Assembly: GCA_965287045.1 (NCBI GenBank)
Contig: OZ336872.1
Span: 104,966,001-105,030,000 of the forward strand
From: Carcharhinus amblyrhynchos
Lineage: Eukaryota
Direction of reading: 5' to 3'
DNA: 64,000 nucleotides
The position numbers are program-made. The stretch's first letter is position 1. Each line of letters starts with the position of its first letter. Shown in pieces: positions 33,001 to 36,000 of this stretch.

Positions 33001-36000
33001 TTTTTAAAACGTATTTAACGTTGGCCCTCAAATGTAATCAAGATGCAAATGCTGCCTTTAACATACAGCATGAAATCCTGAAATATGTTAGGTTTTCCCT
33101 AACATATTTCAGGAATATTAAAGCAGCTAGAGGAAGGGCCACCAATATGACCATTGGTGGCCCTTCCTCTAGCTGCTATAATATTCTAAGCTGAATTGGA
33201 TTAAGACTGCAATGAATGTTAAGGACACATATATATTACATGAATCAAAGTTCAGAAATCACAACATACAATCTAACTGGAAAGTACCACCACGCTAAGA
33301 AACAAAGTTTTAATCTGAACCTTGTATGCCATCTTTGACTTGCTATGAGAAAATGTCTTGCAATCTTGCTTTTAACGCTAATCCGTGCACCTTCGTTTCT
33401 TAAAAACGTGGTACTGACAATAGGCATATATACATATATAGGCTGCTTTATGCTGAAAGTCAATGGATCTAAATAATAGTTTCTTTTGACCTAATATTTT
33501 AGGTCAAAAGAAACAATTCAGTATGTTTGACTTTTTTCAAATAGCTTCTGCTCAAGTTGATGTTTTAAATAAATAGAGATGGTCTGTTTTTTGTGAGTGC
33601 ATAGTGAACATAATGAATCATAAATATATCAATGTCAGAATGGAACATGTGGTGAGCTGCGTTGCCATTTACATGAGAAAAAGTGTGAGAAAACCACAAT
33701 TTCCCAAAACTGGCTGTGATTTCTATTTTTTGGAGTAGGAAAAGGATCACGTTTAACTGTCAACTATACACATGCACAACCAGTGCCTTGATAGCACTTC
33801 ACACAACCCACTCTGCAGGAAAGCCTGTGAAAAAAGTCAATGACTCCCTCTGTCAAGGGCCCTCCCAGACAACAATGAGCATGAGTGTGCTTCACTGAGG
33901 ATGGGGAGGCACTCCACATCACTAATGGAGCTTTTGATTCCTCCCTTTGCAGGGCAGCAATTAGTGATCGATGGTGTGTGCAGCTGGCCAGATGTTTTAC
34001 AGTCAATGTCTGCTGCTTTTTTTTTGATGAACATCTTCAGTCAGTGAGAACTTGAAGTTAATGTGGGGAGAATGAATACAACAACATTGTGATAATTTGA
34101 TTAAAAATAGTAAAGATGCGAGAAGGGAATTAATGAAAGAGAAAGAACAACAAGGGACATATACAATGAGATCTGAGAAGAGGGGTTATTGAGCTGGAAT
34201 ACAGCATCTGATGGTGAAAGTATAAACACTAAAATAAGTTAATATCAAAATAGTTTTCTATAATCACACAGAAAATGCATGAAAAATTAAATAAAGAAAT
34301 TGAAAGAACAAAGTAATTAATATTGGTGTAAATCAATGGGCATGTTCAATAAGCCAGTTTATTTTTAATTGTATAAATAATTTTAGGTTGATTGTCAAAA
34401 TAAGAATTAATGGAAAATTTGCAAAATTATAACACACCAAATGTAATTTATAGTCAGGTATAACCAGGTTCAATTTGTCACATCCAGCATGAACTTTGTT
34501 TTATGATGGTTTAATTTTGTGTATTGCATCTACCCTCGAGATGAGAATAAAGGTTTCTTTTTTTTTAGAACACTTTCATTGTATCGTGTATCCTTTCTCC
34601 TTTGTCTCTACCTGCCTGTACTCCAGGAAATCACATAACGCTGCTGTGCTGGTTCTTTGTTGAGACTTGTGCAGTGGTAATGCAGGCAGCCAAATCCTGT
34701 AAAATCTTGCTAACATTCACCATCTCCCAATCTGAAAAATGAATGCATAAGATTAACGAATAATTGCTGTGAGTCGAAAACCCCCAATAATTCCCAATTA
34801 CTACAAATTATTGCACTCAAGAACAAATCATACAGTATCATCACAAGCGAGGTTTAGCTTCAAATTAAAAAGTCATTTTTTGTTATACTTTATTTATTGC
34901 ACCTATACTTAGTGCTGAGAACAAACTTTTGATATGAAATATCTCTTGTAATGGATTGCATTGAGCAAAGGTATGTGTTGTGTGTAAATGTGTATGTGTG
35001 TCTATATACGTATATGTGTGGATGTATATTTATATATATGTGTGTGTGTGAGTATGTGTGTATGTGTATTTGTCATATGCACGATGCGTTTATCTTATGC
35101 ATGTGTGTGAAAGTTTGTTGAATTTGGAGACAAAAATGGCTAAAGTCACAAAACTGCCGATGAGAAAAGAAGAGTTTGATACTCAAATATATGTTTGGTT
35201 TCTGAATTACCAGACTTGCTGGACAGTAGAACATTCAGGCAGCTTCTATATGTGTATGCTGGTGGGGGTCAGAGGTTGAAGAGGGCAGTGGTGTGCTTTG
35301 CTGGGACGTTAGGTGTCACTCTGGGGCTGCTTCACTCTAAGGAGCCCCTTTGGGGCCTTAAGATACATGTATTGTAATCTTTCTTGTGTGTATAAGTGTG
35401 TTTAGTGTATTTATATAAAAATCTATACTGTGGGCGGTTTTATCTGGGAGAGGGAGGATGCTCTGTGGCAAACCGCTGATTACAAAATCTGGTCGAGGTT
35501 AAAAGAGAACAAATAATTTACAAGTATTACTTGTACAAATTGGTTCTGTGCGTCTGTAGGTTGTATAAGCTATGAATGGGATACATTATGCGATTAATTA
35601 ATGCTCTGCATTCTGTTTATACCAAAAGTATGGTATCAAAATGAAACTAAAATAAAATATTATTGCTATTAAATATTTGATTTTAGTCGAGGTGACGTAT
35701 GGCAGCGTCACAATATTTACCAGCTGAAATCTCCAGAAGGATTATATTCACCATTTTGAAAGTGATATTAGCAGAACTTGAAAATGCTAAGTTTATGGGT
35801 AACTGATTCCCAGTGGCTGCAGTTGTTAAATAATTGAAAGCTGCAGTTTTCAGAGCATCAACTGAGGCAGGAAACTAAGAATTAAAAAATGAAGCATTAA
35901 AAATATTTCCACTGTTGCGTACAGTTGACCTCAATATGAACATAGAGCAGTAGACAAAATGGCAGCACAGCCAGTGACTTGTCAGAGAAACTGCACCTGT

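What the first reader, a model, noticed from the sequence alone, without database searches (positions are those of the whole stretch)
33076..33186. Back-to-back near-perfect hairpins in ephb3 intron 1, including a 34-bp stem
Seen: a perfect 17-bp stem (33076-33114) overlaps by 2 nt a 74-nt hairpin (33113-33186) with 25 perfect pairs, one mismatch and 8 more pairs. The arms are complex sequence, I saw no other copy in the window, and they lie in the TE-free domain. Known: Microprocessor substrates have stems of about 33-35 bp, and ancient vertebrate repeats such as Eulor/UCON are often palindromic. Inference: a candidate intronic miRNA or hairpin RNA, ADAR substrate, cruciform, or foldback element kept symmetric by template switching or selection. 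I recognise no known miRNA in it, and the 6-nt loop is small for a pri-miRNA.
Basis: partly seen in the sequence, partly recalled or inferred. Interest (0 to 1): 0.65.

Follow-up and report, generated by a model that had tools for sequence, protein, structure and literature searches.

The report
Fold-back palindrome cluster in shark ephb3 intron
Three near-perfect DNA palindromes packed into 443 bases of a shark ephb3 intron are most likely scars of a DNA-copying error in which the polymerase folded back and copied its own strand, a known process that can seed new hairpin RNAs, and they do not look like an established microRNA gene.

Summary
H1 (33076-33114) has a 17-bp perfect stem. H2 (33113-33186) has 34 pairs with one A.A mismatch. 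They overlap by 2 nt. These are the only three perfect stems of at least 12 bp with loops of at most 10 nt in the 64 kb, and all lie within 443 bp.

They sit in ephb3 intron 1 on the sense strand, about 5.2 kb after exon 1. No arm has another copy in the window. There is no target-site duplication, no Rfam family and no transposase remnant nearby. All 69 intact pairs are Watson-Crick with no G.U, and loops are 4-6 nt.

H2 has the right stem length for Microprocessor. Its loop is too small, it has none of the UG, UGU or CNNC motifs, and H1 occupies its 5' flank.

A fourth, older palindrome (22092-22172) inside a SINE copy is a replacement-type template switch with known polarity.

Best reading: fold-back template-switch scars, probably neutral. 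A Made1-like MITE origin is not excluded, because no eukaryotic genome or repeat library was available.

The parts
33076..33114 (.). H1: perfect palindrome with 17-bp arms and the 5-nt centre TTTTC
   Evidence: DNA fold -16.3 kcal/mol, z -11; 17 of 17 Watson-Crick pairs
33113..33114 (.). 2-nt overlap (GA) where the outer ends of the H1 and H2 stems meet. Read as a junction microhomology, or as the point where the second fold-back copy stopped at the first hairpin.
33113..33186 (.). H2: palindrome with 34-nt arms and the 6-nt centre ATGACC; 33 of 34 pairs are Watson-Crick, with an A.A mismatch at 33121/33178
   Evidence: DNA fold -36.6 kcal/mol, z -14.4
33475..33518 (.). H3: third palindrome with 20-nt arms (16 perfect pairs, an A.A mismatch at 33478/33515, then 3 more pairs) and the 4-nt centre TATT
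   Evidence: DNA fold -15.9 kcal/mol, z -9
27853..27906 (+). Context: coding part of ephb3 exon 1 (signal peptide). Intron 1 runs from here to about 56699.
   Evidence: tblastn of the Mustelus asterias EphB3b protein, residues 1-18, 100% identity
56700..56765 (+). Context: ephb3 exon 2
   Evidence: tblastn, residues 19-40, 100% identity
60859..61530 (+). Context: ephb3 exon 3 (ephrin ligand-binding domain and start of the cysteine-rich domain)
   Evidence: Pfam Ephrin_lbd E 6.4e-67 and Ephrin_CRD E 1e-22; tblastn 99.1% over 224 aa
22092..22172 (.). Comparator: an older palindrome (40-nt arms, 90% complementary, 1-nt centre) inside a tRNA-derived SINE copy. The right arm (22133-22172) is an inverted copy that replaced canonical SINE sequence.

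Best explanation
H1, H2 and H3 are mutational scars of fold-back (intrastrand) template switching. A growing 3' DNA end, at a stalled fork or at a resected double-strand break, folded back on itself after a 4-6-nt turn. It copied 17-34 nt of its own strand and then returned to the proper template or was joined to the other end. Each event creates a perfect Watson-Crick inverted repeat in one step.

H1 and H2 are coupled, because their stems end on each other with a 2-nt overlap. Either one break had both ends snap back and the two new arms (the right arm of H1 and the left arm of H2) were joined at a GA microhomology, or the second copy stopped when it ran into the first hairpin.

The DNA palindromes are shown. 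The mechanism, the coupling and the direction of copying are inferred.

The palindromes lie in the sense strand of ephb3 intron 1, so every pre-mRNA carries a 17-bp hairpin abutting a 31-34-bp hairpin. Most likely this is neutral raw material, a possible ADAR or Dicer substrate or proto-miRNA, and not an established gene.
For: (1) 69 of 71 stem pairs are Watson-Crick, none is G.U and 2 are A.A. Both strands fold equally well. That symmetry is expected from DNA copying, not from a stem maintained at the RNA level.
(2) The centres are 5, 6 and 4 nt, the minimal turns for a fold-back.
(3) No other copy of any arm exists in 64 kb. No TSD exceeds 2-3 nt. No TIR or TSD bounds the whole block: 105 of 500 shuffles reach the best 8-of-9 inverted match. 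No Pfam domain was found in the 7 ORFs nearby.
(4) The three longest perfect short-loop stems of the window all lie within 443 bp. Three random points would do so with P of about 1.4e-4. H1 and H2 abut to the base, which fits one complex event or a local hotspot.
(5) In-window positive control. In the palindrome at 22092-22172, the left arm segment 22104-22119 matches the SINE head at 12 of 15 positions. The right arm matches the majority of the 5 other SINE copies at 11 of 40 positions (chance level). The SINE sequence after it matches at 40 of 58 and 131 of 160. The reverse complement of the right arm aligns to the same SINE-head site as the left arm. So an inverted copy replaced canonical sequence, with known polarity.
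(6) Literature. Template switching creates perfect stems of 30-55 bases in one event, can need no pre-existing repeat, and includes multi-switch cases. Of 99 intragenic TSM-associated miRNA loci, 81 lie in sense introns (PMC10710096). Fold-back inversions at breaks span 2 to about 150 bp, with a median junction microhomology of 2 bp (PMC11724301).
Against: No outgroup sequence was available, so the ancestral hairpin-free state of H1-H3 was not seen, and neither polarity nor a single event is shown. Three events in 443 bp require a complex event or a hotspot, which I infer but did not demonstrate. H2's layout (two 34-nt arms and a 6-nt centre) is the same as that of the Made1 MITE (two 37-bp TIRs and 6 bp; PMC1784062), and copy number in the whole genome could not be checked. 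In the yeast break assay most fold-back inversions were under 14 bp, so 34 nt is at the long end. The positive control is a single case resting on short alignments.
Confidence: 0.6

Rival explanations
1. The hairpins are tiny palindromic MITEs: TIR-only derivatives of DNA transposons, like the human Made1 element that gave rise to mir-548. Alternatively they are parts of one composite non-autonomous element inserted into the intron.
For: H2's architecture (34 + 6 + 34 nt) mirrors Made1 (37 + 6 + 37 bp; PMC1784062, passages). If H2 is read as a TA-flanked element, the target would be the palindromic octamer formed by its outer bases, which would suit Tc1/mariner; that target preference is recalled, not tested. 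H3 gives a weak Rfam match to mir-548 at 28.4 bits, E 5e-4 for 121 bases searched. A family with a few thousand copies in a multi-gigabase genome need not recur within 64 kb.
Against: No second copy of any arm in the window. No TSD beyond 2-3 nt, and TA/AT 'duplications' inside a palindrome are automatic. The mir-548 match is far below the gathering score of 90, has E 0.0044 for 1 kb searched, is absent from the whole-window gathering run, and covers only the model's centre. Three unrelated palindromic families landing within 443 bp, two of them abutting to the base, with none elsewhere in 64 kb, is unlikely. The block has no bounding TIR or TSD and no transposase remnant.
Confidence: 0.17
2. 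H2, alone or with H1 and H3, is a functional small-RNA locus: a lineage-specific intronic miRNA, endogenous shRNA or siRNA hairpin expressed with ephb3 and kept paired by selection. This concerns present function and could hold whatever the origin.
For: H2's 34-bp stem matches the roughly 35-bp preference of Microprocessor (PMC10710096 introduction). It lies in a sense intron, where young miRNAs are enriched. Made1 hairpins with a 6-nt centre do yield miRNAs. About 21% of pri-miRNAs lack all three motifs (PMC6004053).
Against: The loop is 6 nt (4 nt on the - strand) against a preference for 10 nt or more. None of the UG, UGU or CNNC motifs is present on either strand, and the ends are not GT..AG. 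The 5' basal flank on the sense strand is paired in H1. No Rfam family reaches threshold. There are no G.U pairs or bulges of the kind that established miRNA stems accumulate. H1 and H3 are too short for Drosha.
Confidence: 0.08
3. The palindromes act at the DNA level and are kept by selection, for example as cruciform-forming protein-binding sites or a recombination or replication element within the ephb3 regulatory landscape.
For: The single-strand DNA folds are strong: -16.3, -36.6 and -15.9 kcal/mol. The local 4 kb has no intra-window repeats.
Against: No feature points to a known DNA-level element. The arms share no motif with each other. A 34-bp perfect palindrome is far longer than any dimeric binding site needs. 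Conservation could not be tested.
Confidence: 0.05
4. An assembly or sequencing artefact: chimeric fold-back reads collapsed into the consensus.
For: None from the sequence. It is listed because reads were not available.
Against: The artefacts I know of (recalled: missed hairpin adapters, fold-back chimeras) make kilobase-scale inversions that carry adapter sequence, not 17-34-nt arms with 4-6-nt centres. One mismatch each in H2 and H3 looks like later substitution. A blastn against plasmid and vector records found nothing. The same kind of palindrome, older, occurs at 22 kb.
Confidence: 0.03

Closest known systems
Template-switch mutations (TSMs) that create perfect hairpins (four-point model; Loytynoja and Goldman 2017; Monttinen et al. 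2022, 2023)
   Same: One-step creation of a perfect Watson-Crick inverted repeat next to its source, with unique sequence and no TSD. Stems of 30-55 bases are counted as miRNA-like. Events are enriched in sense introns, and multi-switch cases are reported (PMC10710096: abstract, introduction, section 6 and passages). The 22-kb palindrome in this window shows the replacement signature directly.
   Different: For H1-H3 the defining evidence, an outgroup with the pre-event state, is missing. Three hairpins in 443 bp, two of them abutting with a 2-nt overlap, is a denser pattern than the single events described in the parts I read. The 2017 and 2022 papers were seen only as a search listing and the start of the abstract.
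Fold-back (snap-back) inverted insertions at double-strand breaks (Pol delta plus NHEJ or alt-EJ in yeast; Pol theta-type templated insertions)
   Same: Short inverted duplications of the sequence next to the break, 2 to about 150 bp, with a peak at 30-34 bp in one context, joined to the other end with 0-5 bp of microhomology (median 2) (PMC11724301). The 2-nt GA overlap between H1 and H2 fits this.
   Different: The yeast case used a 41-nt loop set by a pre-existing 10-bp microhomology, and only one break end primed synthesis. Here the loops are 4-6 nt and, in my model, both ends would have snapped back. That paper notes that Mre11 can process hairpins with loops of up to about 8 nt and inhibits fold-back inversions, which would act against such intermediates.
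Made1 MITE / mir-548 family
   Same: A near-perfect palindrome of two long arms around a 6-bp centre that forms a very stable hairpin when transcribed from either strand (PMC1784062). H2 has the same geometry.
   Different: Made1 is a multi-copy, primate-specific, mariner-derived element. H2 has no second copy in the window, no clear TSD and no sequence match. The only mir-548 signal is on H3, at 28.4 bits against a gathering score of 90.
Canonical animal pri-miRNA
   Same: The stem length of H2 (34 bp) and its sense-intronic position.
   Different: Loop of 6 nt rather than 10 or more; none of UG, UGU or CNNC; 5' flank structured; perfect pairing; no family match (criteria).

Membership tests
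Template-switch / fold-back inverted duplication | A reverse-complement copy lying next to its source with a short spacer, pairing perfect or nearly so | tested here: met
   Arms of 17, 34 and 20 nt with spacers of 5, 6 and 4 nt; 69 of 71 pairs Watson-Crick
Template-switch / fold-back inverted duplication | An ancestral or outgroup sequence lacks one arm (the event is inferable on a tree) | not testable with these tools
   No eukaryotic DNA collection was on hand. The feature is met only for the comparator at 22092-22172, using 5 paralogous SINE copies: right arm 11 of 40 identical to the SINE majority against 40 of 58 and 131 of 160 in the flanking SINE.
Template-switch / fold-back inverted duplication | Not a mobile element: single copy and no target-site duplication | tested here: inconclusive
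   No other copy in 64 kb and no TSD over 3 nt. Genome-wide copy number is unknown.
Canonical pri-miRNA (Microprocessor substrate) | Stem of about 35 bp | tested here: met
   H2 has 34 pairs alone and 31 in the joint fold with H1. H1 (17) and H3 (20) fail.
Canonical pri-miRNA (Microprocessor substrate) | Unstructured apical loop of 10 nt or more | tested here: not met
   Loops of 6 nt (+ strand) and 4 nt (- strand) for H2, 5 nt for H1 and 4 nt for H3. The criterion is from the PMC10710096 introduction.
Canonical pri-miRNA (Microprocessor substrate) | At least one of basal UG, apical UGU and 3' CNNC at the expected positions (present in about 79% of pri-miRNAs) | tested here: not met
   None of the 3 on either strand. 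Positions are from PMC6004053. The feature is not obligatory.
Canonical pri-miRNA (Microprocessor substrate) | Single-stranded basal flanks on both sides | tested here: not met
   On the sense strand the 5' flank of H2 is the 3' arm of H1, with no unpaired bases between the stems. The requirement itself is recalled (Han et al. 2006, as cited).
Canonical pri-miRNA (Microprocessor substrate) | Membership of a described miRNA family | tested here: not met
   Rfam 15 at gathering threshold finds only a tRNA in the window. In E-value mode all 27 matches are below their gathering scores. miRBase and MirGeneDB were not available.
Canonical pri-miRNA (Microprocessor substrate) | Discrete reads of about 22 nt forming a duplex with 2-nt 3' overhangs | not testable with these tools
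   No small-RNA data
Mirtron | Hairpin ends coincide with splice sites (GT...AG) | tested here: not met
   The ends are TC/GA (H1), GA/TC (H2) and AA/TT (H3) on both strands
MITE (Made1-like palindromic element) | Terminal inverted repeats around a very short centre | tested here: met
   H2 is 34 + 6 + 34 nt, compared with 37 + 6 + 37 bp for Made1
MITE (Made1-like palindromic element) | Target-site duplication flanking the element | tested here: inconclusive
   The best candidates are 2-3 nt. TA/AT inside a palindrome duplicates automatically.
MITE (Made1-like palindromic element) | Many dispersed copies, and TIRs related to an autonomous transposon | not testable with these tools
   No further copy in the window. 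No genome, Dfam or Repbase was available. No transposase domain was found in 51 + 7 ORFs.
Eulor/UCON ancient conserved repeats | Match to a consensus and conservation across distant vertebrates | not testable with these tools
   No repeat library or other vertebrate genomes were available. Eulor stands for 'euteleostomi conserved low frequency repeat' (PMC5753468 passages). Near-identical arms argue against great age.

The most novel reading that the evidence does not exclude
One complex multi-switch repair event created three hairpins at once, and with them a ready-made hairpin-RNA cluster in the sense strand of ephb3 intron 1. H2 (34 bp) is already cut by Dicer or Drosha, perhaps helped by coaxial stacking on H1. 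That would make this a newborn shark-specific miRNA or endo-siRNA locus caught at the zero-mismatch stage, outside the mammals in which this birth process was mainly documented in the parts of the literature I read.
Probability: 0.08. Interest if true: 0.6.

Novelty: new member of a known kind. Interest (0 to 1): 0.35.

Why it matters
If the reading is right, this is a clean example of fold-back template switching in a cartilaginous fish. It shows two coupled hairpins meeting at a 2-nt junction, a third hairpin starting 289 nt after H2 ends, and an older event in the same window whose polarity can be read from paralogous SINE copies. Such loci are the proposed raw material for de novo miRNA genes. 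Sharks mutate very slowly, so they may preserve the perfect-stem stage for a long time. That makes them a good place to measure how often such hairpins arise and how often they are recruited. On its own the locus is an ordinary mutational footprint. It is of practical use to annotators, because it would be a false positive for hairpin-based miRNA finders.

Tried and rejected
- Rfam, whole window at gathering threshold: only a tRNA. E-value mode on 32700-33700 and on 33440-33560: only sub-threshold, structure-driven matches, mostly to plant miRNA families. The mir-548 match on H3 (28.4 bits against 90) was followed up and dropped.
- Copies of the arms in the window by blastn with word size 7: none. 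The best non-self hits touching an arm have E of 0.11 or worse.
- TSD search with inward shifts of 0-5 nt: nothing beyond 2-3 nt.
- TIR or TSD around the whole H1-H3 block: the best inverted match is 8 of 9, reached by 105 of 500 shuffles. The best direct 8-mer match is 6 of 8, reached by 450 of 500.
- Transposase or viral remnants by Pfam on 51 ORFs of at least 100 aa: only the Eph exon. On 7 ORFs near the hairpins: one meaningless sub-threshold hit (BssB_TutG, 13.9 bits against 25.6). This also argues against a parvovirus-type hairpin terminus.
- Vector or construct origin by blastn, distant mode, against 72,556 plasmid records: no match.
- Further quasi-palindromes at 32600-34000 with a 6-nt seed: only three short AT-rich ones of 11-12 nt.
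- Helitron 3' hairpin, hAT, piggyBac and mariner terminal motifs were compared by eye against the sequence, using recalled consensus features. None fitted. This is weak evidence.
- A shared 5-mer (TTAGG/CCTAA) at the apices of H1 and H3 was noticed by eye in opposite arrangements. I judged it a chance match among many features inspected.
- Absolute dating: with 7e-10 per bp per generation (PMC10587355), 2 mismatched pairs of 71 give about 2e7 generations (95% Poisson 2.4e6 to 7.3e7). That is too wide to be useful, and the mismatches could be copying errors. Only the relative order is used: H1-H3 at 2.8% per pair, the 22-kb palindrome at 10%.
- Not done: any search of eukaryotic genomes, Dfam/Repbase, miRBase/MirGeneDB, small-RNA or raw reads, because none was available. 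Supplementary files of the papers were closed. The SI of PMC10710096 (multi-switch cases, tables) may bear on loop sizes and on how often events cluster.
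Full report
**1. The observation**

The sequence of 32800-33500 and the repeat finder confirm both hairpins at the stated coordinates.
- H1 has arms 33076-33092 and 33098-33114: 17 nt, 100% complementary, 5-nt centre.
- H2 has arms 33113-33146 and 33153-33186: 34 nt, 97% complementary, 6-nt centre. It is made of 25 perfect inner pairs, an A.A mismatch at 33121/33178 and 8 outer pairs.
- The stems share 33113-33114.

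As RNA, 33060-33200 folds to -84.4 kcal/mol on the + strand (z -15.1) and -87.1 on the - strand (z -13.8). None of 200 shuffles did as well on either strand. In that joint fold H1 keeps 17 pairs and H2 keeps 31.

It has 16 perfect pairs, an A.A mismatch at 33478/33515, 3 more pairs and a 4-nt centre.

**2. More than chance, and clustered**

A scan for perfect stems of at least 10 bp with loops of at most 10 nt found 8 in the 64 kb, of lengths 25, 17, 16, 11, 11, 10, 10 and 10. The three longest are H2, H1 and H3. In 20 block shuffles the longest stem was 12.

Of 4261 overlapping 90-nt windows folded as + strand RNA, the one with H2 is the most stable, at -62.4 kcal/mol against a mean of -16.15 and sd of 6.79. 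Second is a palindrome at 22092-22172.

All three long perfect stems lie within 443 bp. Three random points in 64 kb would do so with probability about 1.4e-4. In addition, H1 and H2 end exactly on each other.

**3. Context**

- The window has no N.
- A 244-aa open frame at 60817-61548 (+) carries Ephrin_lbd (E 6.4e-67) and Ephrin_CRD (E 1e-22). It was the only one of 51 frames of at least 100 aa with a Pfam match.
- Its best relatives are EphB3 proteins of sharks, led by Mustelus asterias EphB3b at 99% identity. Of 6256 candidates, 5766 had E of 1e-30 or better, and 120 were listed.
- Matching that protein to the window exon by exon placed residues 1-18 at 27853-27906 (100%), residues 19-40 at 56700-56765 (100%) and residues 41-264 at 60859-61530 (99.1%), all on the + strand.
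Intron boundaries are taken from the ends of the protein matches only.

The window is therefore from a houndshark-like shark and is not human. The hairpins lie in ephb3 intron 1, about 5.2 kb after exon 1, on the transcribed strand.

32001-36000 has no intra-window repeats, but intron 1 has them at 30-32, 36-38 and 40-54 kb. That map sees only repeats with at least two copies in the window.

**4. What the hairpins are not**

*Not a described RNA family.* Rfam at gathering threshold finds only a tRNA at 20699-20771. In E-value mode all 27 matches in 32700-33700 are below their gathering scores. The best is a plant family, MIR5229, at 41.5 bits against 80. The alignments show pairing being matched rather than sequence.

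*Not a good Microprocessor substrate.* The preference is for a stem of about 35 bp and an unstructured loop of 10 nt or more (PMC10710096 introduction). About 79% of pri-miRNAs carry at least one of basal UG, apical UGU and 3' CNNC at fixed positions (PMC6004053 passages).
- H2 meets the stem length only.
- Its loop is 6 nt (4 nt on the - strand).
- It has none of the three motifs on either strand.
- On the sense strand its 5' flank is the H1 stem, with no unpaired base between them.
- H1 and H3 are too short.

*Not mirtrons.* No hairpin end is a splice site.

*No sign of a mobile element.*
- No arm recurs in the window.
- TSD candidates are 2-3 nt, and the TA/AT ones are automatic within a palindrome.
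- The block as a whole has no bounding TIR or TSD beyond chance.
- The 7 open frames nearby have no Pfam domain.
- Plasmid and vector records give no match.

**5. What the sequence says about origin**

- Of the 71 stem pairs, 69 are Watson-Crick, none is G.U and two are A.A. A stem maintained at the RNA level tolerates and accumulates G.U pairs and bulges, and then folds better on one strand. These hairpins fold equally well on both strands. That is the mark of a DNA-level reverse-complement copy.
- The centres are 4-6 nt, about the tightest turn a folded-back strand can make.
- The arms are unique, complex sequence with GC content of 25-44%.
- Two of the hairpins meet with a 2-nt overlap.

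Together these fit intrastrand template switching. A 3' end folds back, is extended on its own strand, and then returns. This is known to create perfect stems of 30-55 bases in one event, with or without a pre-existing repeat, sometimes with several switches. Of 99 intragenic TSM-associated miRNA loci, 81 lie in sense introns (PMC10710096: abstract, introduction, section 6 and passages).

The break-repair version is also documented. Fold-back inversions of 2 to about 150 bp arise at a double-strand break and are joined to the other end with 0-5 bp of microhomology, median 2 (PMC11724301: abstract and passages).

**6. An in-window positive control**

The second most stable hairpin (22092-22131 / 22133-22172, 40-nt arms, 90% complementary) lies inside a copy of a tRNA-derived SINE. 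That SINE has at least five other copies in the window. Using those copies as the reference:
- Left-arm segment 22104-22119 matches the SINE head at 12 of 15 positions.
- The right arm matches the majority of the other copies at only 11 of 40 positions, which is chance level.
- The SINE sequence directly after the palindrome matches at 40 of 58, and the body at 131 of 160.
- The reverse complement of the right arm aligns to the same SINE-head site as the left arm.

So about 44 nt of canonical SINE sequence were replaced by an inverted copy of the sequence just upstream. This is the replacement signature of a template switch, with the direction of copying known. It is one case on short alignments, but it shows the process has acted in this very region of this genome. 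Its arms differ at 4 of 40 pairs, against 2 of 71 for H1-H3, so H1-H3 are the younger events.

**7. Proposed mechanism and what is inferred**

Shown: the palindromes, their uniqueness in the window, their clustering and their position in the sense intron.

Inferred: that each arose by fold-back copying, and that H1 and H2 are coupled. For the coupling I see two versions.

(a) One break lay between them. The left end (left arm and centre of H1) and the right end (centre and right arm of H2) each snapped back and were extended by 17 and 34 nt. The two new arms were then joined at the GA microhomology. This predicts a net insertion of about 49 nt.

(b) There were two successive switches, the second ending where the polymerase met the first hairpin.

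H3 starts 289 nt after H2 ends. It is either part of the same multi-switch event or a sign of a local hotspot. I cannot choose between these without an outgroup.

Consequence: every ephb3 pre-mRNA carries a 17-bp hairpin stacked against a hairpin of 31-34 bp. That is long enough to be bound by double-stranded-RNA proteins (recalled knowledge). I know of no evidence that this matters here.

**8. Age**

With the only direct shark mutation rate I found (7e-10 per bp per generation, 95% CI 1.4-14.1e-10, epaulette shark; PMC10587355 passages), 2 mismatched pairs of 71 correspond to about 2e7 generations (Poisson 95% 2.4e6 to 7.3e7). The hairpins are 'young' in substitutions but could be old in years. 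They may therefore be shared by related genera, which makes the comparative test feasible. The mismatches could also be copying errors made at birth.

**9. Rivals**

The main rival is a Made1-like MITE. Made1 is two 37-bp TIRs around 6 bp and gave rise to mir-548 (PMC1784062 passages), and H2 has the same geometry. Against it:
- there is no second copy and no clear TSD;
- three unrelated palindromes would have had to land together;
- the mir-548 signal on H3 is sub-threshold.

Genome-wide copy number is the missing datum.

A functional small-RNA locus, a selected DNA element and an assembly artefact are each less likely, for the reasons given under Rival explanations.

**10. What stayed unchecked**

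- No eukaryotic genome, repeat library, miRBase/MirGeneDB, small-RNA data or raw reads were available.
- Paper supplements were closed.
- Three template-switch papers (PMC5453318, PMC7954356, PMC8794818) were seen only in a search listing.
- Statements about transposon terminal motifs, target preference and double-stranded-RNA-binding thresholds are recalled, not tested.

**11. Verdict**

This is a real and statistically striking cluster of three near-perfect palindromes. It is best explained as a fold-back template-switch scar in a transcribed intron (confidence 0.6). It is a new example of a known mutational process, with a modest chance of being a MITE and a small chance of being a nascent small-RNA locus.

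Noticed in passing
window 22092-22172 (SINE copy continues to about 22396): A palindrome with 40-nt arms (90% complementary) lies inside a tRNA-derived SINE copy. Compared with 5 other copies in the window, its right arm is an inverted copy that replaced about 44 nt of canonical SINE sequence. That is a template-switch mutation whose polarity can be read.
   Followed up: yes
window 22172-22396 (+), 20604-20377 (-), 12881-12656 (-), 42209-42432 (+), 3030-3198 (+), 6860-6696 (-), 63101-63032 (-): A SINE family with a tRNA-related head and a conserved body. Six copies were aligned, and one more fragment was found by blastn. Copies are 71-80% identical to the 22-kb copy. The family was not named because no repeat library was available.
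   Followed up: partly
window 20699-20771 (-): A tRNA-Cys (GCA) gene or pseudogene: Rfam 53.1 bits, and also called by ARAGORN. It lies directly 5' of the SINE copy at 20604-20377 on the same strand. Whether it is a real tRNA gene or part of a composite SINE is open.
   Followed up: partly
window about 32895-32909: A G-rich run (four G, one T, nine G) lies about 165 nt upstream of H1. Such runs can hinder replication (recalled), so it is a conceivable trigger for fork stalling near the hairpin cluster. This was not tested.
   Followed up: no
window 33420-33437, 32805-32820, 33619-33634: Three short AT-dinucleotide-rich quasi-palindromes (11-12 nt, 82-83% complementary) flank the hairpin cluster. 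They may simply reflect local AT richness (GC 0.39 in 32001-34000).
   Followed up: no
window 33121/33178 and 33478/33515: The only two non-Watson-Crick pairs among the 71 are both A.A, and both lie in the outer part of their stems. This could be coincidence or a shared bias in copying errors.
   Followed up: no
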